Part shown: positions 14,814 to 45,786 of the stretch, piece by piece
Layout of the letters: every line of letters begins with the position of its first letter
Numbering within the stretch: position 1 is the first letter of the stretch
From: Patescibacteria group bacterium
GTDB lineage: Bacteria; Patescibacteriota; Minisyncoccia; Phycocordibacterales; UBA12445
Assembly: GCA_003504275.1 (NCBI GenBank)
Contig: DOAO01000014.1
Location: 8,889-72,888 of the forward strand
Length of the DNA stretch: 64,000 bases
Reading direction: 5' to 3'
Translations under genes and position numbers: made by a program
The notes under the pieces: model-generated
The model's database searches: none
What the model saw: only the letters and a program-made list of their open reading frames with translations
Told to the model about the DNA's origin: nothing

Positions 14814-15233
14814 ATGCAATTCCAAGTACCACAATTTATTGAAATAGAAGATAAGGTCATAGGACCGTTTACTTTTAGACAATTCCTTTTTCTTTTAGGA
14901 GCGGGAGGAGGAAGTTTCGCCATATACAGAATTATTCCAGCTCCATTTTCATACCTCCTTATCGCCCCCGTTGCAGGACTGGGCCTGGCCCTCGCTTTCT
15001 ATAAAGTAAATAATCGTCCCTTCACAACAATGGTTGAGTCATGGTTCAAATTCAGTCTTGGAAATAAAAGATATTTATGGAAAAAAGAAGCCACAACAAT
15101 AAAAAAAGAGGCTATGGAAATAGAAGGAATGATAAACAAAACAACTATTCCAAAACCGATAGTACCCAAGTTGACCGCCGGTAAATTAAAAGATATTGCA
15201 TGGAGTTTAGATATTAAGGAAAAGATTAAGTAG
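14814..15233 (+). CDS. small two-TM membrane protein (VirB3-like candidate)
   Basis: 139 aa, two hydrophobic helices; bracketed by two copies of the 89-bp element. Confidence 0.4.
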   Translation: MQFQVPQFIEIEDKVIGPFTFRQFLFLLGAGGGSFAIYRIIPAPFSYLLIAPVAGLGLALAFYKVNNRPFTTMVESWFKFSLGNKRYLWKKEATTIKKEAMEIEGMINKTTIPKPIVPKLTAGKLKDIAWSLDIKEKIK

Positions 15234-15252
15234 GAATTAAGATAAAGGACTC

Positions 15253-15341
15253 GTTGTTGCGAGATTTGAAAATTTTAAAAAAGAAGCTCAACCTCTTTTT
15301 TAGAAGGTTGAGCTTCCAAAATTTTCAAATCTCGCAATGAC
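15253..15341. repeat. 89-bp palindromic element (copy A2)
   Basis: gttgttgcgagatttgaaaatttt...ctcgcaatgac. Confidence 0.8.
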
Positions 15342-15558
15342 AAAAAATAGGAAACGAGGTGCAAGGGTGTTAAAATAATGAAGAGGAACGTAAAGCGAAA
15401 AGCGAAAAATGCAAAATAACAATTTAAAATTAAAAAGAAACAAAAAAAATACCATCAAGGTCGAATATTTTAATAATAAAAAGCGAAAATACAACTTTTT
15501 TACTTTGATTTTTACACTGTTGTTTTTCGCTTTTAGTTTTTAGTTTTACACTTTTAAA

Positions 15559-30792: not shown

Positions 30793-30820
30793 GTTAGGTG
30801 TTGATTATAAAATTTTTTAG

Positions 30821-30859
30821 CAACAAAAAACGCTCTAAAAATTAGAGCGTTTTTTGTTG
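30821..30859. terminator. bidirectional intrinsic terminator
   Basis: caacaaaaaacgctctaa-aaat-tagagcgttttttgttg extended palindrome with A-run and T-run. Confidence 0.7.
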
Positions 30860-30867
30860 CTAATCTT

Positions 30868-31053
30868 TTATATACCGTCACTCCCAACCCCAAGGTCTAG
30901 TCCAAGCACGGCTTCTGGATTGAAATCGTCATCGCTTCCGACAATCCCATCGAGGGCGTCTTCGCTAAGAGCGGTATCCATATCCTCATCAAAGCTTTCG
31001 TAAATTTCTGTGGACTCACCTTCTTCTTTTTGTGGTTTTTTTAGTTTAGGCAT
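30868..31053 (-). CDS. small acidic hypothetical protein
   Basis: 61-aa ORF upstream of ruvC. Confidence 0.3.
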   Translation of the reverse strand: MPKLKKPQKEEGESTEIYESFDEDMDTALSEDALDGIVGSDDDFNPEAVLGLDLGVGSDGI

Positions 31054-31151
31054 TTCTTTTATGCTAAAACTCTATAAAAACTTATAATCTTCTACTATAT
31101 AACAGTTAGATAAACATTATTAGCAAAGTCTGAATTATTTTGCAAGGATTT

Positions 31152-34584: not shown

Positions 34585-34961
34585 TTTTTTTCTTTTATGC
34601 TAACCTTGTTTTCATCCGACGATATTTGTTTACAAAGACAGTCTTACGTGTTATCAATTGTCTTTGGCAATAATAATATAATTTATTTATTTTTGCCTTG
34701 TTTGTTGATAAATCTATTCGGATAAAGATAGAGAATTTGGCTCTCTAAGCAATAAAACTTACGGGTTTAAATGGTTTTTTACGGAGGACGCTCTGGTCTT
34801 CACCTTAGAGTGAAATCGCTGGAACTATCCTACAAAAAAATCTAACTTTTGATGCATCATCAAAAGAATTGCTTAGAGAATCAAATGCTCTATACATAAC
34901 TGCTTAGTTTACACTGGGCAGTTATTTTTTTATTTTCCTTTTAAAGAACTAAACCCTCTCC

Positions 34962-35050
34962 GTCATTGCGAGATTTAAAAATTTTGGAAGCTCAACCTCC
35001 TAAAAAAGAGGTTGAGCTTCTTTTTTAAAATTTTCAAATCTCGCAATGAC
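34962..35050. repeat. 89-bp palindromic element (copy A3, inner hairpin flipped)
   Basis: gtcattgcgagatttaaaaattttggaagctcaacctcc...ctcgcaatgac. Confidence 0.8.
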
Positions 35051-35062
35051 GAAACACTCCTT

Positions 35063-37700: not shown

Positions 37701-37715
37701 TTAACGTTTAGGGTT

Positions 37716-37744
37716 GACAAATAGGACGATTGGGTGTATAATGC
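37716..37744 (+). promoter_or_regulatory. sigma70-like promoter
   Basis: TTGACA-17nt-TATAAT consensus match, followed by RBS aaaggagg and ATG at 37807. Confidence 0.6.
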
Positions 37745-37806: not shown

Positions 37807-38232
37807 ATGAAGAATTTTATTATCTCGGCTTTCATTGTAACTTTTTTGACTACTACGGCACTGTATCTTTCAAAGGTTTTATTAAACAATTCTTGTTTCA
37901 GTTACACCAGCCAGTTTGTACTCGGTTTTGTACAGATCGCTATCATGTCGGTATCTGTCAAATACTTTTTTGATTCAACTTTAAAAATTTTGGTTGCTAC
38001 CTCGGTCGCGCTGACCGCATATACCTTTTCCTTCAGTTTTGTTTATTTAAATACTCTCTGGTTGACAGTAGCGTTATTGCCAGCAATTATATCCCTGTTC
38101 CTTCTTGCTGACATAAGAGATAGTCTTGAGGTGGAAGAAAAAGAAAAAATGAAATACGTCAAACAGGCAGTCACGTTAATGCTCACAGAGTTCATTATTC
38201 TTTCTGTCGCAATAATTCATCTCGCAAAATAA
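37807..38232 (+). CDS. hypothetical 4-TM membrane protein
   Basis: 141 aa hydrophobic. Confidence 0.45.
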   Translation: MKNFIISAFIVTFLTTTALYLSKVLLNNSCFSYTSQFVLGFVQIAIMSVSVKYFFDSTLKILVATSVALTAYTFSFSFVYLNTLWLTVALLPAIISLFLLADIRDSLEVEEKEKMKYVKQAVTLMLTEFIILSVAIIHLAK

Positions 38233-38414: not shown

Positions 38415-40823
38415 ATGAAAACAGCTTCAGATAAACACGAATTTAAGAGAAGAATTGTACTTCTTGATGTACACGCGATACTTCATCGCGCTTATCACGC
38501 GCTTCCAGATTTTACAACATCAAAAGGTGAGCCTACGGGTGGTCTATATGGACTCTCTTCGATGCTTATAAAAATAATTGGCGAACTGAAGCCCGATTAT
38601 ATTGCTGCTTGTTATGATTTGCCAGAGCCGACTTTTAGGAAGAAACTTTATGATGCATACAAGGCGGGGAGGAAGGAGACCGATACTGCTCTTATTGACC
38701 AGATAATACGCTCACGTGATGTGTTTACCGCTTTTAACATACCTATTTATGAAAAGGCTGGTTTTGAAGCTGACGATATGATTGGCACAATAGCCGAAAT
38801 GGCGAAGAAAGAAAAAGATTTACAGATTGTCATTGCCTCAGGAGACTTGGATACAACTCAGCTTATAGAAGACGAGAAAGTTGTCGTCTACACTCTTCAC
38901 AAAGGAATAAAAGATACAATTATTTATGATGAGAAAGGAATAGAAGAAAGATACGGTTTTGGTCCGAAATTTATGGCGGACTTCAAGGGGCTTCGTGGAG
39001 ATCCTTCAGATAATATAATTGGCATAAAGGGAATCGGCGAGAAGACTGCCGAGACACTTATAAAAAACTTTGGAACGATAGAGGGAATTTATGAGGCCCT
39101 AAAGAAAGATGAAAATATTTTACTCAAGGCCGGTATAAAGGCGCGAATGATAGAGCTTCTGAAAGAAGGGGAGGAAGAGGCACTTTTCTCAAAAAATCTG
39201 GCGACGATCAGACGTGATGCGCCAATTGATTTTTCTTTACCAAAAAAGACATGGCAAGGCGGTCTTGATATGGAGAAGGTTAAAAATTTGTTTTCCGTTT
39301 TAGAATTCAGGACATTATTTGGAAGAATGGAACAGCAGTTGGGAATTTTTGCTCCTACTCCCAACTTGGAAGCTTCGCTTCCAAGTGAAAATATAGATGG
39401 GGTGAATGAGGAGATAGACCCACTACGTCTTAAAAAGCTTTTTATTGCTCTTTGGCTTATAAATTCAGAACTAACGAATCCCAAACTTGAGGATATTTAC
39501 GCTTTTGGAGAGACAAAAGATATTAATGTTGCCGAGAAAAAAATATTAGAAAGAATAAAAGAGGATGGGCTTGAGAGGGTTTATTACGAAATTGAATTAC
39601 CCATTATTCCTATAATAGAAGATGCTGAAAAACGAGGAATACTTCTGGATGTTGATTATCTAAAGAAACTTTCAGAGGATTATCATAAAAAGCATAAAGC
39701 TCTCGAAAATAAAATATATGAACTAGCGGGAACCGAATTTAATATAAATTCGCCAAAGCAGATGGGTGAAATACTTTTTGAAAAAATGGCACTTTCAAAG
39801 AAGGGGATAAGGAAAACCGCCGGTGGCGCGATTTCTACAAAAGAATCCGAACTGGAAAAATTAAAAGATGCGAGTCCTATCGTTGCAGAAATATTGGAAT
39901 ATAGAGGTATTCAGAAACTACTTTCTACATATATAGACAATCTTCCTTTGTTGGTAGATGAGAAAAATCGTTTACACACACATTTAAATCAGACAGGTAC
40001 TACAACAGGTAGAATGTCGTCCACAGATCCAAATATGCAGAATATTCCGGCGAGAGGAGAGGAAGGTTCTGAGATAAGACGTGCGATACTAGCATCCCCC
40101 GGATACAAACTTGCAGCTTTTGATTATTCTCAGATAGAGATGAGGGTACTGGCTTATCTGACCGACGACGAGACACTTATACAGACCTTCAGAGATGGTA
40201 AAGATATTCATTCCTCGGTGGCGTCAAAAGTGTTTGGCGTTCCGGAAGATAAAGTTACAAAAGAAATGAGGCGTCAGGCTAAAGTTATAAATTTCGGAAT
40301 AATATACGGAATGGGAATTAAGGCTCTCAAGAAAAACCTCGGTTCCACGATGGAGGAGGCGGAAACATTTCACAATAATTATTTTGAGAAGTTCCCGAAA
40401 GTAAAAGAATATTTTGAAAGAATAAAACAAGAGGCTCACGACAAAGGATACACAACTACTTATTTTGGAAGGCGCAGATATTTCCCCGAGATAAATTCTC
40501 ATTTGCCATATATTCGCTCAGAGTCAGAGAGGATGGCTATGAATGCGCCAATACAGGGCACAGCTACGGCTGATATTATAAAACTCGCTATGGCGCACGT
40601 TGACGGTAAGCTTCGCGAGGAAAAGCTTCCAAGCGATAAAATACATCTTCTTCTACAAGTTCACGATGAGCTTGTTTATGAGGTAAAGGACGATGAGGAT
40701 ATCGCGAATATTGTCGGTCTCATAAAACACGCGATGGAAAATGTTGTTTCCATAAATTTACCGCTACTTGTGAATGCATATACGGGAGATAATTGGAGCG
40801 AATTGAAAGAAGTTAAAAGTTGA
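38415..40823 (+). CDS. polA: DNA polymerase I (5'-3' exonuclease plus polymerase; reduced/absent 3'-5' exo)
   Basis: motif B RRQAKVINFGIIYG, motif C LLQVHDELVYE; 802 aa. Confidence 0.85.
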   Translation: MKTASDKHEFKRRIVLLDVHAILHRAYHALPDFTTSKGEPTGGLYGLSSMLIKIIGELKPDYIAACYDLPEPTFRKKLYDAYKAGRKETDTALIDQIIRSRDVFTAFNIPIYEKAGFEADDMIGTIAEMAKKEKDLQIVIASGDLDTTQLIEDEKVVVYTLHKGIKDTIIYDEKGIEERYGFGPKFMADFKGLRGDPSDNIIGIKGIGEKTAETLIKNFGTIEGIYEALKKDENILLKAGIKARMIELLKEGEEEALFSKNLATIRRDAPIDFSLPKKTWQGGLDMEKVKNLFSVLEFRTLFGRMEQQLGIFAPTPNLEASLPSENIDGVNEEIDPLRLKKLFIALWLINSELTNPKLEDIYAFGETKDINVAEKKILERIKEDGLERVYYEIELPIIPIIEDAEKRGILLDVDYLKKLSEDYHKKHKALENKIYELAGTEFNINSPKQMGEILFEKMALSKKGIRKTAGGAISTKESELEKLKDASPIVAEILEYRGIQKLLSTYIDNLPLLVDEKNRLHTHLNQTGTTTGRMSSTDPNMQNIPARGEEGSEIRRAILASPGYKLAAFDYSQIEMRVLAYLTDDETLIQTFRDGKDIHSSVASKVFGVPEDKVTKEMRRQAKVINFGIIYGMGIKALKKNLGSTMEEAETFHNNYFEKFPKVKEYFERIKQEAHDKGYTTTYFGRRRYFPEINSHLPYIRSESERMAMNAPIQGTATADIIKLAMAHVDGKLREEKLPSDKIHLLLQVHDELVYEVKDDEDIANIVGLIKHAMENVVSINLPLLVNAYTGDNWSELKEVKS

Positions 40824-40973: not shown

Positions 40974-41708
40974 ATGTACTACCTCCTACACGGAAAAGAC
41001 ACCGCCAATAGCAGAAAAAAGATGAGCGACACTATCGCGTCTTTTCAAAAAAAGAACCCCCATTCAAATATTTTTCGTATGGGTACGGACGATTTTAGCT
41101 CCAGTGCTTTTTTGGAACACATAGGGGGGCAAAGTTTGTTTGCCGACAAGTTCCTTATAATTTTAGATGGAGTATGTAAAAACGAAGAAGCCAAGGAATT
41201 TATTTTTGATAATCTCAAAACGACAGCATCTTCTCATAATGTTTTTATATTTATTGAAGAGGATTTGAAAAAGCCTGAAACTACAAAGTTTGAGAAGTAT
41301 GCTGAAAAAGTTTTTAAATTTGATATTCCGGAAGACAAAAAGGGAGAGAAGGGATTTAATATTTTTTCTATATGTGACGCACTAGGTGAGAAGGACAAGA
41401 AAAAGCTCTGGGTTGTTATGAACAAAGCAGAGAGAGCTGGAATCAGTGCGGAAGAAATATTTTGGAAGCTTTCTTGGCAGATAAAGAACATGCTTTTGGC
41501 GAAGGTGGCTATTGAAAAGGGGGATAGAGCTGTAGAGAAATTAAAAATAAGCCCCTTCGTGCTTTCAAAGGCAAAAAGATATGCCAATAATTTTACAGAA
41601 TCTGAACTCAGGGGTCTTTTTGGAAAGACAGTGACGCTTTATCATGAATCCAGACGAGGATTCTCTGATTTTGATACGGCACTAGAGGCTTTTATATTGG
41701 GGCTTTAG
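40974..41708 (+). CDS. hypothetical protein (possibly clamp-loader delta-like)
   Basis: 244 aa; location after polA only. Confidence 0.3.
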   Translation: MYYLLHGKDTANSRKKMSDTIASFQKKNPHSNIFRMGTDDFSSSAFLEHIGGQSLFADKFLIILDGVCKNEEAKEFIFDNLKTTASSHNVFIFIEEDLKKPETTKFEKYAEKVFKFDIPEDKKGEKGFNIFSICDALGEKDKKKLWVVMNKAERAGISAEEIFWKLSWQIKNMLLAKVAIEKGDRAVEKLKISPFVLSKAKRYANNFTESELRGLFGKTVTLYHESRRGFSDFDTALEAFILGL

Positions 41709-41764
41709 AAAAATGCTTGTTTTTAAGACTTTTTTGACTATCTGCTTAATTGATATCAAATTAC

Positions 41765-41793
41765 TTGACAAAATTATTATAATTTGATATACT
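41765..41793 (+). promoter_or_regulatory. sigma70-like promoter driving candidate ncRNA
   Basis: TTGACA-17nt-TATACT. Confidence 0.5.
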
Positions 41794-41799
41794 CAAAGA

Positions 41800-42112
41800 A
41801 GATAAAAAATGAATATGCGTCAATTTGAATCCTTGTTAAGTTTCGCCTTGAGCAAACTTAGTCAGGAAGGAACCCTCCGTTAAGCGCATCTTCATTTGTT
41901 CGTTGAAAATCGAGGCCTCCGTTTGCGTTAGTTGTGAAAAGCTTACCCTGACAGTGGGTAGGGATAAGCACCTTGATATATCAAGGAAGTCTCTTGAAGG
42001 ATCTATCTTTCTCACGAAAGACGATTTCTTCTCATTGATTGAGTGTTTGGGTTAAAAACTGCAGCTTTACGCGCGGAAAACAAACTGGTCGTCTAATAAC
42101 GACCAGTTTTTT
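41800..42112 (+). ncRNA. candidate structured ncRNA of unknown family
   Basis: own promoter and own intrinsic terminator (42082-42112), multiple internal hairpins, no long ORF (only a 24-codon ORF). Confidence 0.3.
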
Positions 42113-42222
42113 ATTTTTTGTATAGTTATTAATAAGATTGACTCAGTACTTCTTTATTGTAATAATGACCCAAAATAGTTGTTTGAAATAATAAATAGCT
42201 AAAAGCAAAAAGGAGGGTACTT

Positions 42223-42525
42223 ATGCTCGATAATTTTCTGGAGGCTTTGGATAAATATACACAAAATATCTTGGAACATCTTAGGTTTAAGAAAGAGATA
42301 GAGGAAAAATACCATATTACTCATTATTATATGGAAACTTTTATTTATCCTGGCTGGATAACGGTTACCAAATTTGGAATAAGCGATAACGATTGGAATA
42401 AATTGTTCCGTCAAAAAAGAGATATAAAAAATCTTGAAAATTTTCTTGAACTAACAGAAGAAGAACGTCTTACATGCCAGGAAGCTGCAGGAGAAATTTT
42501 CTTGGCTGAATGTCAGAAAAAATGA
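42223..42525 (+). CDS. small protein, tandem paralog 1
   Basis: strong RBS aaaggaggg; shares KxxQxxLxxHLxF...YY and LELT(E/Q)EE motifs with the next two ORFs. Confidence 0.5.
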   Translation: MLDNFLEALDKYTQNILEHLRFKKEIEEKYHITHYYMETFIYPGWITVTKFGISDNDWNKLFRQKRDIKNLENFLELTEEERLTCQEAAGEIFLAECQKK

Positions 42526-42827
42526 GGGAGGAAGTTTCTATGATTAAAAACATCTCGGAGGTTCTCAAAAAGTATAAGCAAAAACTTCGGGAACACCTGA
42601 GTTTCCTTGAAAGCATAAAGAGTTATTACAGTCTTCAGTGTTTTGACGAACACATCTATTATTGGGGCCAAAAACTCGGAATTGGAAATGCGGACTGTGA
42701 AAAAATAGCATATCAGCGTCATGAATTGAGTGGTATCAGTGAAGTTCTTGAATTGACACAAGATGAGATTGATCAATACTACGATGAAGCAAAAGCTTTA
42801 ATCGCGACTGAATATCAGAAAAAATAG
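42510..42827 (+). CDS. small protein, tandem paralog 2
   Basis: RBS gagggagg; paralogous motifs. Confidence 0.5.
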   Translation: MSEKMREEVSMIKNISEVLKKYKQKLREHLSFLESIKSYYSLQCFDEHIYYWGQKLGIGNADCEKIAYQRHELSGISEVLELTQDEIDQYYDEAKALIATEYQKK

Positions 42828-42839
42828 AGGAGGTGGGTT

Positions 42840-43103
42840 ATGGTTTTGGATATATCTAAGGCTGTTTCTGTTTATAAACAAAAGCTACTCGCTTATTTAA
42901 AGCTTTGCGAGGAAATGGAGAAAAAATACAACATCAAGGAGACCAACAGCGTTCTTCCATATTTCTATAAATTAAGTGATTATGACTGGAAGGAGCTTGA
43001 TACTAAGAGTAAAGAGCTTATCGCAATAGAAGAAGTTCTGCATTTTACAAAGGAAGAGATTGACTCTTTTTTAAAAGAAGAAAGAGAGTCGCTAGAGAAA
43101 TGA
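42840..43103 (+). CDS. small protein, tandem paralog 3
   Basis: RBS agaggaggtggg; paralogous motifs. Confidence 0.5.
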   Translation: MVLDISKAVSVYKQKLLAYLKLCEEMEKKYNIKETNSVLPYFYKLSDYDWKELDTKSKELIAIEEVLHFTKEEIDSFLKEERESLEK

Positions 43104-43196
43104 TAAAAATACAACCGTCGGATATTCCGGCGGTTTTTTATTAAATAAAATACCTCCCTGGCAGGGGAGGTAAAGATTTTAGGTAGCGATAAGAGT

Positions 43197-43604
43197 TTAA
43201 CTTTTAATGGTAATTATCGCAGGTTTGGCGTGGTTTGTTCGAGGAAATGTTGTAATCTCTTCAAGTCGTACACAAACAACAAATTCTCCTTCTACTCCGC
43301 CCATGGAAACTGTTACTGGTAGTAGTTTACCTCCGACGTTAAATCCGATGATTATGGCGATTCCCTCTCCTGTGTATTTGCTTGAAATGCGTACAATCAT
43401 TCCTCTTTTTAATTTTCTATCGTCTCGCGTAATTACGCTATCGATTTCTCCGTCTCTAAAATTTATTATTTGGAAATCGGTATTATTGGTGGGAAGTGCA
43501 ATTGAAACTTTTTTTCCATGGAAACTGGCAATCCTTGCCTGGGTTATTGCCTGAGATAGACCTAAAGGATTAATTTTCATAAGTATTCCTCCTTTAATTT
43601 TCAA
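43197..43604 (-). CDS. hypothetical protein
   Basis: 135-aa ORF convergent with the paralog trio. Confidence 0.4.
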   Translation of the reverse strand: MKIKGGILMKINPLGLSQAITQARIASFHGKKVSIALPTNNTDFQIINFRDGEIDSVITRDDRKLKRGMIVRISSKYTGEGIAIIIGFNVGGKLLPVTVSMGGVEGEFVVCVRLEEITTFPRTNHAKPAIITIKS

Positions 43605-43993
43605 AATAACTATTTATTTAACAAAAAACTACCATTTATCTGAATGAAAGTAAAGATAAAAAAATTTGGACATGGAACGTCCAAATTGATAAAGAAGGTT
43701 ACTTATTCTGTTGCAAGGAATCTTTAGTCGCCGAGATATAGGCGACACCTGTAGACGGGCTACGCGAACAGTATCCCGATTGGAGGAATCTTCGCCTACG
43801 TTTAGAAAAGACAGGAATCGGTCACAAATCACTAAGCTTTTTATTTCGCTATGCTCATAAAAATCAAAGTGTTCGCGACCCCGCCTCAGCTCCCATTCTT
43901 GCAGAATGGGTCCCACTTCCAGCTTTCGATTCCTGCTGGGCGCTACAAAACAAAAAACACCCAAATGCTTTCGCATTTGAGGTGTTTGTTTTG

Positions 43994-44066
43994 TGCGCCC
44001 AGCAGGAATCGAACCTGCGACCATTTGCTTAAAAGGCAACTGCTCTACCAGCTGAGCTATGGGCGC
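43994..44066 (-). tRNA. tRNA-Lys (anticodon TTT)
   Basis: reverse complement GCGCCCATAGCTCAGCTGGTAGAGCAGTTGCCTTTTAAGCAAATGGTCGCAGGTTCGATTCCTGCTGGGCGCA; anticodon loop CTTTTAA; no encoded CCA. Confidence 0.85.
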
Positions 44067-44316
44067 AAAATATTATCTATTTTTCGAAATTAACAAAATT
44101 CGTTTTACTGATATAAACACTACCAATTCTTGCCCCGTAACGAAGTTACCTTGGGGAGCTATGGGCGCTTATATGTAAAAAGACAATAACAAAAAATATT
44201 AATATTGTCTATATTATATAACTAATTTTCATTATTTTATACCACTTAAGGAATAATTAGCTAAAATTTTTACGGACAAAGAAAACCGCCACAGGTGTCT
44301 GTGGCGGGGATGCGAG

Positions 44317-45786
44317 TTAGTCTTCTTTTCTAGGCTCCGAAGTTTTTTCGGGAATTTCTAATATTGGATTGGGAGAAAATTTTTTAATAACAACCTTTTC
44401 TTTTTTCTTTCCGTTTGAGTCCACGGTCTTAATATCAATGCTTATTCTGTCTCCGGCAATTATACCGCCGTTCTCGGCTTTGATGACAAGGTTTATTAGA
44501 GCTGAAGCAATCTTTGCCGAGATGACATTCTCTATTGGACGAGCACCCAAGGATCTGTTCATGGGGTCTCTTGTTTCCTTGAATATATAATTGCGGATAG
44601 CCTTAGTGAACTCTATTTTGAGATTAGGTATTGTTTTCTTGAAGCGGGTCATAAGTATGAACAGTTGGTTGTCAATTATTTTTTTGATGTCGTTATCCTC
44701 AAGTGGATGGAAAACAATAAAATTTTCTTTACCGATCCTGCCTATGAGTTCGGTGGGGAAGTGAGGAGAATTTTCAACTTTTTTAATGACAACGTCATAT
44801 ATTGAGTCTTTAGAATCTCTCTCCTCTTCCTTTTCTTCTTTGGTGTTGTATCCGATTTGTCCGCCTCTACCCGAAAGTTTTTTGGCTATTTCTTCCGAGC
44901 CTATGTTTGAGGTCATAAAAACGAAGCAATTTCTGAAGTTGATACGATTTCCGTTTGCAAGCGGAACTATACCATTATCAAACATCGGAAGAAGCGCCCT
45001 CGTTATTTTGGGGTGCATCTTTTCTATTTCGTCAAAAAGAACGATACTGACAGGGAGAGTTTCTTGGCTCTCTTTTTTGTTTTTGTTACTACTGTGGATT
45101 ATGTCTTTGATCTTTTGGTCAAGCTCTTCGATCTTTAATTCGTTCCATTCTTTTTCGCGCGTGAGCCTACCTGTTTCTTCAAAATAAGTTATCTCCTCTT
45201 CAAGAGTTACTTCTTTTTTATCTATCGCTAGGTCGAGTTTATCCAAATCTTCCTGAATTTTTTTGTTTCTGTCTTTGAGTTTTTGTATTTCTACAACGAT
45301 AAGAAGCATTTCAAATCTGTCTTTTTCGTTAATCTCAAAATTAGGTTTTTCTTCTTCAAGTCTTTGTTTTTCTTTTCTTAACTCTTCTTCAAGCTTTATT
45401 CCCCAAAAATTTAATTTATCTTGAGAGAGTTCTGGTTCGCCATTGAAGCCTACATAACCCGGCGGTGAACCGATAAGTCTGGATATGGAATGTTCTTCCT
45501 GGTAAGTGGAGCAATCAATCCTAATAAAGGCGTCAGGATTATTTAAAAGCATATGAGCAAACATTCTTGCGAGGTATGTTTTTCCTACACCGGACGGTCC
45601 GAGAAAGCAAAGCACCCCTGCGGGTTTCATTTTGTCTCTTAAGCCGTGTTTGTACGCGGCTAATTTGCTGGCTAATTTTTCTTTGGCTCGCATTTGTCCT
45701 ATTACATTGCGATCAAAAAAATCAAAATACCCTAACTCTTCCTGACTGAGAGATTCATGGTCAAGCGGCGTCCACATAGCAATCAT
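44317..45786 (-). CDS. ClpA/ClpB D2-like AAA+ ATPase with coiled-coil insertion
   Basis: Walker A GPSGVGKTYLA, Walker B VLFDEIEKMHP, sensor-1 FVFMTSN, sensor-2 GARPIEN; ~120-aa charged coiled-coil between GYVG and Walker B. Confidence 0.65.
   Translation of the reverse strand: MIAMWTPLDHESLSQEELGYFDFFDRNVIGQMRAKEKLASKLAAYKHGLRDKMKPAGVLCFLGPSGVGKTYLARMFAHMLLNNPDAFIRIDCSTYQEEHSISRLIGSPPGYVGFNGEPELSQDKLNFWGIKLEEELRKEKQRLEEEKPNFEINEKDRFEMLLIVVEIQKLKDRNKKIQEDLDKLDLAIDKKEVTLEEEITYFEETGRLTREKEWNELKIEELDQKIKDIIHSSNKNKKESQETLPVSIVLFDEIEKMHPKITRALLPMFDNGIVPLANGNRINFRNCFVFMTSNIGSEEIAKKLSGRGGQIGYNTKEEKEEERDSKDSIYDVVIKKVENSPHFPTELIGRIGKENFIVFHPLEDNDIKKIIDNQLFILMTRFKKTIPNLKIEFTKAIRNYIFKETRDPMNRSLGARPIENVISAKIASALINLVIKAENGGIIAGDRISIDIKTVDSNGKKKEKVVIKKFSPNPILEIPEKTSEPRKED

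What the first reader, a model, noticed from the sequence alone, without database searches (positions are those of the whole stretch)
41765..43103. Stand-alone ~320-nt structured transcript upstream of three tandem paralogous small proteins
A near-consensus promoter (TTGACA-17-TATACT, 41765-41793) and a strong intrinsic terminator (42082-42112) delimit a ~320-nt region with many internal hairpins and no long ORF. A second promoter-like TTGACT-17-AATAAT follows. Three co-directional genes (100/105/87 aa) then each carry a very strong Shine-Dalgarno and share sequence blocks (K(Y/Q)KQKL.EHL.F...KY..., LELT(E/Q)EE...). The transcript is either an independent sRNA (6S, SRP-like; a GUCAGGAAGGAA stretch loosely recalls SRP domain IV) or a cis-regulatory leader/attenuator for the paralog trio. 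No RNase P or tmRNA hallmark motifs were found.
Basis: partly seen in the sequence, partly recalled or inferred. Interest (0 to 1): 0.55.

Follow-up and report, generated by a model that had tools for sequence, protein, structure and literature searches.

The report
Orphan small-RNA-like unit on accessory islet
A roughly 300-base stretch with a good promoter and a strong terminator but no convincing gene sits beside three duplicated small genes on a 2-kb piece of DNA found only in this one groundwater Parcubacteria lineage; it belongs to no known RNA family, has no relatives, and is only a plausible candidate small RNA.

Summary
The sequence features are real. There is a TTGACA-17-TATACT promoter with a TGn extension (41765-41793), an 11-bp terminator with a T run (42082-42121), no Shine-Dalgarno (SD)-led ORF between them, a second promoter, and three paralogous SD-led genes.

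The "highly structured" claim is weak. Without the terminator the fold z-score is -2.1, against a window-wide mean of -0.6 ± 1.7.

No Rfam family matches, including SRP, 6S, RNase P, tmRNA and riboswitches. No homolog of the RNA turned up in any collection I could search.

The two closest relatives (PolA 85% and 78% identical) keep polA-holA...tRNA-Lys but lack the RNA and the trio. So 41709-~43807 is a lineage-specific islet.

The trio belongs to a very rare family of ~80-105-aa helical proteins. Elsewhere it is single-copy, with no similar RNA upstream, which argues against a conserved leader.

Only six of 54 genes in the window have an SD. Five are missing from one or both close relatives or have no homolog in any fetched locus; the sixth is shared with L006 only.

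The RNA carries two CCUCCGUU anti-SD-like motifs.

Best reading, at moderate-to-low confidence: an independently transcribed orphan sRNA on acquired DNA, possibly pairing with SD regions. A non-functional relic is nearly as likely. Interest is low to moderate.

The parts
41765..41793 (+). Sigma-70-type promoter: TTGACA, 17-nt spacer, TATACT, with an extended -10 TG at 41785-41786. The predicted transcription start is about 41799-41801.
   Evidence: It is one of only two sites matching at least 11/12 in the 64-kb window. L006 has the same hexamers and spacing at a similar distance after holA.
41800..42081 (+). Body of the candidate RNA, about 280 nt. The MFE fold has a 5' domain (41807-41897) and a multibranched 3' domain (41918-42077). 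G+C is 0.41-0.44.
   Evidence: Fold z is only -2.13. There is no Rfam match and no homolog anywhere searched.
41809..41883 (+). 24-codon ORF (MNMRQFESLLSFALSKLSQEGTLR) about 10 nt from the predicted start. It has no SD, but it sits in the A-rich context that SD-less core genes of this genome also have.
   Evidence: Translation is untested, and no homolog could be looked for.
41874..41881 (+). First CCUCCGUU motif (anti-Shine-Dalgarno-like). Its upstream ACCC is unpaired and UCC is paired in the predicted ensemble.
   Evidence: This octamer occurs on the + strand only twice in 64 kb, both times in this RNA.
41916..41923 (+). Second CCUCCGUU motif, 42 nt after the first.
   Evidence: This site gives the best predicted 24-nt duplex with the paralog-1 initiation region (-18.8 kcal/mol, rank 1 of 54).
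42082..42121 (+). Intrinsic terminator: 11-bp stem with 5 G-C pairs, 6-nt loop, then a T run.
   Evidence: It is also the first terminator-like site downstream of the holA stop codon.
42138..42166 (+). Second promoter-like site, TTGACT-17-AATAAT (10/12, with TG), serving the three-gene operon.
42223..42525 (+). Paralog 1, 100 aa, with SD AAGGAGGG.
42540..42827 (+). Paralog 2, 95 aa counted from the SD-supported start (GAGGGAGGAAG). The longest ORF, from 42510, gives 105 aa.
   Evidence: The AlphaFold2 model is a four-helix protein with pLDDT 85.6.
42840..43103 (+). Paralog 3, 87 aa, with SD GAGGAGGTGGG, the strongest SD in the window.
43113..43135 (+). Terminator of the three-gene operon.
43197..43580 (-). 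Convergent orphan gene of 127 aa, SD-led (AAAGGAGGAA), with its own terminator at 43172-43151.
   Evidence: It matches no family and has no homolog in any fetched locus.
41709..43807 (.). Lineage-specific islet between the holA stop codon and the conserved block next to tRNA-Lys. It holds the RNA, the trio and the 127-aa gene.
   Evidence: Similarity to L006 and L038 stops at 41709 and resumes at 43808 (L006) or 43981 (L038). L006 carries different, high-G+C cargo at the same spot.

Best explanation
The ~280-315-nt stretch at 41800-42112 is an independently transcribed, lineage-specific small RNA. It sits on a ~2.1-kb accessory islet inserted between holA and a tRNA-Lys gene in Parcubacteria bacterium GW2011_GWF2_38_76.

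**Shown from sequence**
- A near-consensus extended -10 promoter and a strong intrinsic terminator bracket the stretch.
- No SD-led ORF lies between them.
- G+C is raised relative to the flanking spacers.
- A separate promoter serves the downstream trio.
- The whole islet is absent from the two nearest relatives.

**Inferred**
- That the RNA is made and is stable.
- That it acts by base pairing through its two partly exposed CCUCCGUU motifs with the purine-rich SD regions of the few SD-led mRNAs in the cell. Those are mainly the adjacent trio, and the effect would be to lower their translation.

It is not a member of any described RNA family.
For: - **Expression signals.** Promoter and terminator are as described. 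The promoter is one of only two sites matching at least 11/12 in 64 kb.
- **No coding signal.** There is no SD-led ORF and no Pfam hit in any of six frames.
- **Composition.** G+C is 0.41-0.44 against 0.29-0.30 in the flanks.
- **Fold.** z is -2.1, on the low side but not exceptional.
- **Motifs.** The two CCUCCGUU octamers are the only + strand copies in the window. CCUCC occurs about once per 1600 nt on that strand, so about 0.18 are expected in 280 nt and 2 are seen.
- **Predicted targets.** The 24-nt duplexes with initiation regions rank paralogs 1, 2 and 3 at positions 1, 2 and 6 of 54 genes.
- **SD usage.** SDs occur in only 6 of 54 genes, four of them on this islet.
- **Separate unit for the trio.** The downstream genes have their own promoter.
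Against: - No homolog exists, so there is no conservation or covariation evidence at all.
- The folding energy of the body is within the normal range for this genome.
- A single 11/12 promoter match is expected by chance about three times per window.
- The terminator could simply end the polA-holA transcript.
- The anti-SD observation is post hoc. The duplex ranking follows almost entirely from CCUCC meeting GGAGG.
- Both motifs are partly paired in the predicted ensemble.
- There are no expression data.
Confidence: 0.4

Rival explanations
1. It is a non-functional relic. The stretch is leftover spacer or decayed cargo of an acquired islet. The promoter belongs to the insertion hot spot or to a lost gene, and the terminator ends polA-holA transcription and insulates the trio. 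Any transcript is a by-product.
For: - The stretch is absent from both close relatives and has no homolog anywhere.
- Fold z is unexceptional.
- L006 has the same promoter type at a similar distance after holA but drives entirely different, high-G+C cargo. That suggests the promoter is independent of the RNA.
- G+C of 0.41-0.44 is in the range of coding DNA here.
- A 67-codon stretch is open in frame 0.
Against: - No similarity to any protein family in six frames.
- No homolog of the longest open stretch among 5.8 billion proteins.
- No significant similarity to the adjacent paralogs.
- The paired CCUCCGUU motifs and the clean promoter-terminator bracket are not expected of random decay.
Confidence: 0.3
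2. It is the mRNA of a very small protein. The 24-codon ORF at 41809-41883, about 10 nt from the predicted start, is translated by the SD-independent route that the core genes of this genome appear to use. The rest is a long structured 3' UTR.
For: - 48 of 54 genes in the window lack an SD and have A-rich upstream sequence like AAGATAAAAAATG.
- The ORF begins right after the promoter.
Against: - The peptide has no recognisable features and no homologs could be sought.
- All other genes on this islet use strong SDs.
- A 200-nt 3' UTR after a 75-nt ORF is unusual.
- ENA and JGI gene callers called nothing here.
Confidence: 0.12
3. It is a cis-acting leader or attenuator. Transcription from 41765 reads into the trio when the 42082 terminator is bypassed in response to some signal.
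For: The orientation is the same, the terminator lies between promoter and genes, and only 110 nt separate the terminator from paralog 1.
Against: - No Rfam cis-regulatory family matches.
- The trio has its own promoter-like site.
- I saw no upstream segment complementary to the 5' arm of the terminator (by inspection).
- Family members in other organisms are not preceded by a similar RNA, and two have only ~130-160-nt upstream gaps.
Confidence: 0.1
4. It is a decayed fourth copy of the paralog family. The unit length of about 313 nt equals one gene unit. By eye, frame 0 (SLEGSIFLTKDDFFSLIE) resembles the family's IE.VL.LTKEEI block.
For: - The unit length matches.
- BLASTP of frame 0 against paralog 1 and its relative gives 32-37% identity over 19-22 aa at the colinear position (E 0.1-0.4 in a five-sequence database).
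Against: - The family HMM finds nothing here among 2470 six-frame fragments at E <= 50.
- DNA-level nhmmer finds nothing.
- A frameshift-tolerant profile alignment scores 18.2 and 21.1. That is reached by 10% and 37% of other 321-nt genomic windows, and by 4% and 17% of shuffles.
Confidence: 0.05

Closest known systems
Promoter-to-terminator trans-acting bacterial sRNAs with C-rich seeds that pair with Shine-Dalgarno regions (for example the UCCC-motif sRNAs of Staphylococcus such as RsaE and RNAIII; named from my own knowledge)
   Same: It has the stand-alone promoter and intrinsic terminator, a size of a few hundred nucleotides, no convincing ORF, repeated C-rich motifs partly in loops, and predicted pairing to purine-rich ribosome-binding sites.
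   Different: There is no sequence or Rfam relationship, no conservation, no expression data, and the motifs are only partly exposed. The host is a CPR bacterium whose core genes mostly lack an SD, so the potential target set would be unusually small.
   Same: It contains the string GUCAGGAAGGAA, which resembles part of GGUCAGGUCCGGAAGGAAGCAGC in helix 8 (the E. coli sequence is quoted from memory).
   Different: There is no helix-8 hairpin or GNRA loop around the string. It matches no SRP model even at E <= 10. It is absent from close relatives, which a housekeeping RNA would not be.
TIGR arrays of TIGR-Tas systems (PMC12045711), reported in CPR bacteria and phages
   Same: It is a non-coding stretch with several hairpins ending in a rho-independent terminator, in a CPR genome.
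   Different: It has no tandem or interspaced repeat units. No Nop-domain (Tas) protein lies nearby, since Pfam finds nothing in the neighbouring proteins.
tRNA-adjacent genomic islets
   Same: Variable cargo lies beside a tRNA gene, with different cargo at the same site in a relative. tRNA-derived repeats lie at the edge, and the expression signals are foreign-looking.
   Different: There is no integrase and no direct att repeat flanking the islet. The tRNA-derived 19-mer is an inverted copy, not a direct one.

Membership tests
SRP RNA (bacterial small or large) | Match to the covariance model, including the helix-8 hairpin with GNRA loop and the symmetric loop | tested here: not met
   No SRP hit at gathering threshold or at E <= 10 on 41650-42250.
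SRP RNA / 6S RNA / RNase P RNA / tmRNA (housekeeping RNAs) | Presence in closely related genomes | tested here: inconclusive
   It is absent from the syntenic site in L006 and L038 and from all 100 fetched loci. The whole genomes of the relatives could not be searched.
6S RNA | About 180-nt extended hairpin with a large central bubble, and a match to RF00013 | tested here: not met
   No Rfam hit. The MFE structure is multibranched, not one long hairpin.
tmRNA | tRNA-like acceptor and T arm plus a tag reading frame | tested here: not met
   ARAGORN finds only three tRNAs in the window. There is no Rfam tmRNA hit.
RNase P RNA | P4 helix motifs and a match to the covariance model | tested here: not met
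   No Rfam hit.
Riboswitch or other described cis-regulatory leader | Match to a described aptamer or leader model | tested here: not met
   No cis-regulatory family at E <= 10 apart from an irrelevant PYLIS_1 match on the opposite strand.
Riboswitch or other described cis-regulatory leader | Recurs upstream of homologous genes in other genomes | tested here: not met
   Family members in L085-L088 have no similar upstream RNA.
Trans-acting sRNA (generic kind) | Own promoter and intrinsic terminator, no translated ORF | tested here: met
   The 24-codon ORF is not excluded.
Trans-acting sRNA (generic kind) | A discrete transcript is detected | not testable with these tools
   No RNA-seq data are available here.
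Trans-acting sRNA (generic kind) | Conserved structure with covariation | tested here: inconclusive
   No homolog was found, so no alignment is possible.
TIGR array (TIGR-Tas) | Tandem units with dual spacers, and an adjacent Nop-domain Tas protein (PMC12045711) | tested here: not met
   There are no tandem repeats, no repeat families inside the RNA, and no Nop domain in the neighbours.
Any Pfam, NCBIfam, PHROG or PADLOC family, for the three small proteins | Score above the family threshold | tested here: not met
   Only sub-threshold hits were found (DUF7085, 17.7 bits against a cutoff of 27). No PDB or BFVD fold match has E <= 0.001, and there is no significant PDB sequence match.

The most novel reading that the evidence does not exclude
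An islet-encoded RNA with two anti-Shine-Dalgarno (CCUCCGUU) sites selectively throttles translation of the few SD-led, horizontally acquired genes in a CPR bacterium whose core genes initiate without an SD. In effect it would be a built-in translational governor travelling with foreign cargo.
Probability: 0.12. Interest if true: 0.6.

Novelty: new member of a known kind. Interest (0 to 1): 0.3.

Why it matters
If it is real, it would be one of very few candidate regulatory sRNAs in the Candidate Phyla Radiation, where no sRNA biology is established.

The context may matter more than the RNA. In this window, canonical bacterial expression signals mark genes that are missing from one or both close relatives, while most core genes lack them. 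Those signals are near-consensus sigma-70 promoters and strong Shine-Dalgarno sites. That split could help flag acquired DNA in CPR genomes and raises questions about how they initiate translation.

As it stands, the RNA is an unconserved orphan candidate and does not open any long-standing question to a direct test.

Tried and rejected
**Known RNA families**
- Rfam at gathering and at E <= 10 gave nothing relevant. The RAGATH-22 match (24 bits against a cutoff of 120) is only the terminator plus A/T-rich spacer.
- TIGR-Tas was considered because it is reported in CPR bacteria. There are no repeat units and no Nop-domain protein nearby.

**Homologs of the RNA: none found by any route**
- nhmmer and blastn against 100 loci from GTDB genomes and metagenomes.
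- blastn against phages and plasmids, where only the promoter or a 32-nt chance match hit.
- An exact 29-mer in IMG/VR.
- The longest open frame as a protein query against 5.8 billion proteins, in case gene callers had called spurious ORFs over homologs.

**Trio searches that led nowhere**
- The trio profile in IMG/VR and in JGI metagenomes returned nothing. Alignment A2 was too diverse for that tool.
- Phage tblastn with paralog 2 found no match.

**Alternative identities for the stretch**
- The decayed fourth-paralog idea was not supported.
- A pseudogene of any Pfam family was not supported.
- It is not a repeat or MITE copy; there are no other copies in the window.
- Direct att-type repeats bounding the islet were not found.

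**Not attempted.** I did not build a single-sequence covariance model, because the only searchable DNA was loci where synteny already shows the RNA is absent.

Full report
**Source and setting**

The window is part of a 102-kb groundwater metagenome contig. Public records name the organism Parcubacteria group bacterium GW2011_GWF2_38_76, from the Rifle aquifer (PRJNA268031).

The finding lies just downstream of polA (38415-40823) and a holA-like gene (40974-41708, Pfam DNA_pol3_delta_C). It lies upstream of a minus-strand tRNA-Lys (43993-44066).

**Checking the observation**

All the named sequence features are present:
- TTGACA (41765-41770), a 17-nt spacer and TATACT (41788-41793), with a TGn extension at 41785-41786.
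- An 11-bp hairpin at 42082-42109 followed by TTTTTTATTTTTT.
- TTGACT-17-AATAAT at 42138-42166.
The SD-supported start of the middle gene is 42540 (95 aa). Gene callers gave 95 or 101 aa.

Between promoter and terminator there is no SD-led ORF, and none of the six frames matches Pfam.

I calibrated two points:
- **Promoter.** A match of at least 11/12 occurs only twice in the 64 kb, but shuffled sequence gives 3.1 ± 1.6. The site is persuasive because of its place and orientation, not on its own.
- **Structure.** The z-score of -4.05 for 41799-42116 falls to -2.13 once the terminator and U tract are removed. 290-nt windows across the whole 64 kb average -0.61 ± 1.68. So 'many hairpins' is not more than this genome gives by chance.

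G+C is raised in the body (0.41-0.44) against 0.29-0.30 in the flanking spacers.

**Known RNA families**

Rfam 15 finds only three tRNAs in the window at gathering thresholds. A permissive scan of 41650-42250 finds nothing for SRP, 6S, RNase P, tmRNA, riboswitches, T-box or ribozymes. ARAGORN finds no tmRNA.

GUCAGGAAGGAA is not embedded in an SRP-type hairpin.

TIGR arrays, which occur in CPR bacteria (PMC12045711), were considered. There are no repeat units and no Nop-domain protein nearby.

**Conservation**

A PolA-based scan of one genome per GTDB species returned 79 loci. A holA-based scan of JGI metagenomes returned 12 more. The RNA is found only in identical copies of the same population, L001-L004.

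The two closest relatives keep the flanks but not the RNA or the trio:
- L006 has PolA 85% and HolA 73% identical to the window.
- L038 has PolA 78% and HolA 60% identical to the window.
- Nucleotide similarity stops at the holA stop codon (41709). It resumes at 43808 in L006 and at 43981 in L038.
- L038 goes from holA almost straight to tRNA-Lys.
- L006 has, at the same spot, a different high-G+C cargo of SD-led small ORFs and a 309-aa ORF. That cargo sits behind a TTGACA-17-TATACT promoter with the same extension.

So 41709-~43807 is a lineage-specific islet at a variable site next to a tRNA gene. No integrase and no direct flanking repeats were found.

Further searches for the RNA all came back empty: phages, plasmids, IMG/VR, and a protein-database search with its longest open frame.

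**The three small proteins**

They form a very rare family:
- There are about 13 clusters among 5.8 billion proteins and 10 representatives among 1.84 billion. All are 80-106 aa, from metagenomes, unnamed and without Pfam domains.
- A 79%-identical relative on a 649-bp contig has two copies in the opposite order.
- In four other contigs the gene is single-copy in unrelated contexts. No similar RNA lies upstream. Two of them have only ~130-160-nt gaps and one has a 360-nt gap.
- AlphaFold2 on a 16-sequence alignment gives a confident four-helix protein (pLDDT 85.6).
- No significant match was found in PDB or BFVD folds, PDB sequences, Pfam, NCBIfam, PHROGs or PADLOC.

Their function stays unknown.

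**A hypothesis I raised and rejected**

The stretch is about 313 nt, one paralog unit long. By eye, frame 0 resembles the family's IE.VL.LTKEEI block, which suggested a decayed fourth copy.
- The family HMM finds nothing there among 2470 six-frame fragments.
- DNA profiles find nothing.
- A frameshift-tolerant profile alignment scores no better than 10-37% of other genomic windows.

**Context that changes the picture**

Measuring SD strength for 54 genes shows that only six have an SD:
- the three paralogs;
- the convergent 127-aa gene on the same islet;
- a 141-aa orphan at 37807;
- the ClpB-like AAA+ gene at 44317, counted from an alternative start.

The trio is absent from both L006 and L038, apart from the L005 relative. 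The 127-aa and 141-aa genes have no homolog in any fetched locus. The AAA+ gene shows only short, patchy nucleotide similarity in L006, which has a gene of similar size at the corresponding place, and none in L038.

The only two near-consensus promoters in the window precede the 141-aa orphan and this RNA. The islet therefore carries canonical expression signals that the core genome mostly lacks, which fits acquired DNA.

**Possible mechanism**

The RNA holds two CCUCCGUU octamers at 41874 and 41916. They are the only + strand copies in 64 kb. About 0.18 CCUCC are expected in 280 nt.

They are complementary to GGAGG-type SDs. The best 24-nt duplexes with initiation regions rank paralogs 1, 2 and 3 at positions 1, 2 and 6 of 54. 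In the predicted ensemble the motifs are partly unpaired.

This is a post hoc observation, and the ranking follows mainly from CCUCC meeting GGAGG. I treat it as the most likely mechanism if the RNA is functional, not as evidence that it is.

**Verdict**

| Reading | Confidence |
|---|---|
| Independently transcribed orphan sRNA on an acquired islet, possibly acting on SD regions | about 0.4 |
| Non-functional relic of islet cargo | about 0.3 |
| mRNA for the 24-codon ORF at 41809-41883 | about 0.12 |
| Leader or attenuator for the trio | about 0.1 |
| Decayed fourth paralog | about 0.05 |

It is not SRP RNA, 6S RNA, RNase P RNA, tmRNA, a described riboswitch or a TIGR array. Without homologs or expression data the case cannot be settled computationally. 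Interest is low to moderate.

Noticed in passing
whole window; SD-led genes at 37807-38232, 42223-43103, 43197-43580(-), 44317-45786(-): Only 6 of 54 genes have a Shine-Dalgarno site (duplex with the anti-SD at or below -12 kcal/mol); the other 48 have essentially none. The trio is absent from L006 and L038. The 127-aa and 141-aa genes have no homolog in any fetched locus. The AAA+ gene has only short nucleotide matches in L006 and none in L038.
   Followed up: partly
window 37714-37742 and 41765-41793: The only two sigma-70 sites matching at least 11/12 in 64 kb precede the orphan gene at 37807 (perfect TTGACA-17-TATAAT) and the candidate RNA. The total count is not above shuffles.
   Followed up: partly
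window 43808-43992; L006 4226-4331 and 4376-4542; L038 19470-19588: A conserved ~130-180-nt element lies beside tRNA genes and is duplicated in L006. It starts with CAGGAATCGGYCAC and ends with a perfect 19-nt inverted copy (43925-43943) of the tRNA-Lys 3' end (43995-44013). It contains a hairpin with compensatory changes between copies (CCCATTC/GAATGGG, TCCATTC/GAATGGA, CCCTTTC/GAAAGGG). It may be a tRNA-derived MITE-like element or a structured RNA. Neither tRNA finder nor Rfam calls it.
   Followed up: partly
window ~44158-44172 (minus strand): A 5' fragment of tRNA-Lys (GCGCCCATAGCTC) is repeated about 90 nt upstream of the intact gene. The surrounding stretch 44156-44218 is conserved in L006 and L038.
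   Followed up: no
window 34958-35056, within the intergenic gap 34585-35062: A near-perfect ~95-nt inverted repeat forms a hairpin of about 46 bp. The fold z-score of the gap is -11.7. Only spurious microRNA-precursor hits appear in Rfam.
   Followed up: partly
window 15201-15490 and 30801-31090: These windows, which fall largely in intergenic gaps, have fold z-scores of -6.5 and -6.2, far stronger than the candidate RNA, and no Rfam hit at gathering threshold.
   Followed up: no
L006 2644-4100: At the same site after holA, the closest relative carries different cargo of much higher G+C. It has two SD-led mini-ORFs (28 and 49 aa) and a 309-aa ORF with no NCBIfam match, behind a TTGACA-17-TATACT promoter.
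   Followed up: partly
L085 2458-3120: In the contig that holds a distant trio-family member, a 660-nt non-coding gap has a TTGACT-17-TATGAT promoter and a terminator. It precedes six tandem small genes of 84-117 aa that do not match the trio-family profile (the first starts like a lipoprotein). There is no Rfam hit and no similarity to the candidate RNA.
   Followed up: partly
window 44317-45786(-): A ClpB-like AAA+ gene (AAA_2, ClpB_D2-small) matches the PADLOC DolB model of the Dodola defence system at E 7e-24. L006 has a gene of similar size at the corresponding place, with only short nucleotide matches. L038 has no match here.
   Followed up: no
L005 36-641: The only close relative of the trio (79% identity) has a paralog-2-like gene followed by a paralog-1-like gene, the reverse of the window's order. 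This suggests a dynamic tandem array.
   Followed up: no
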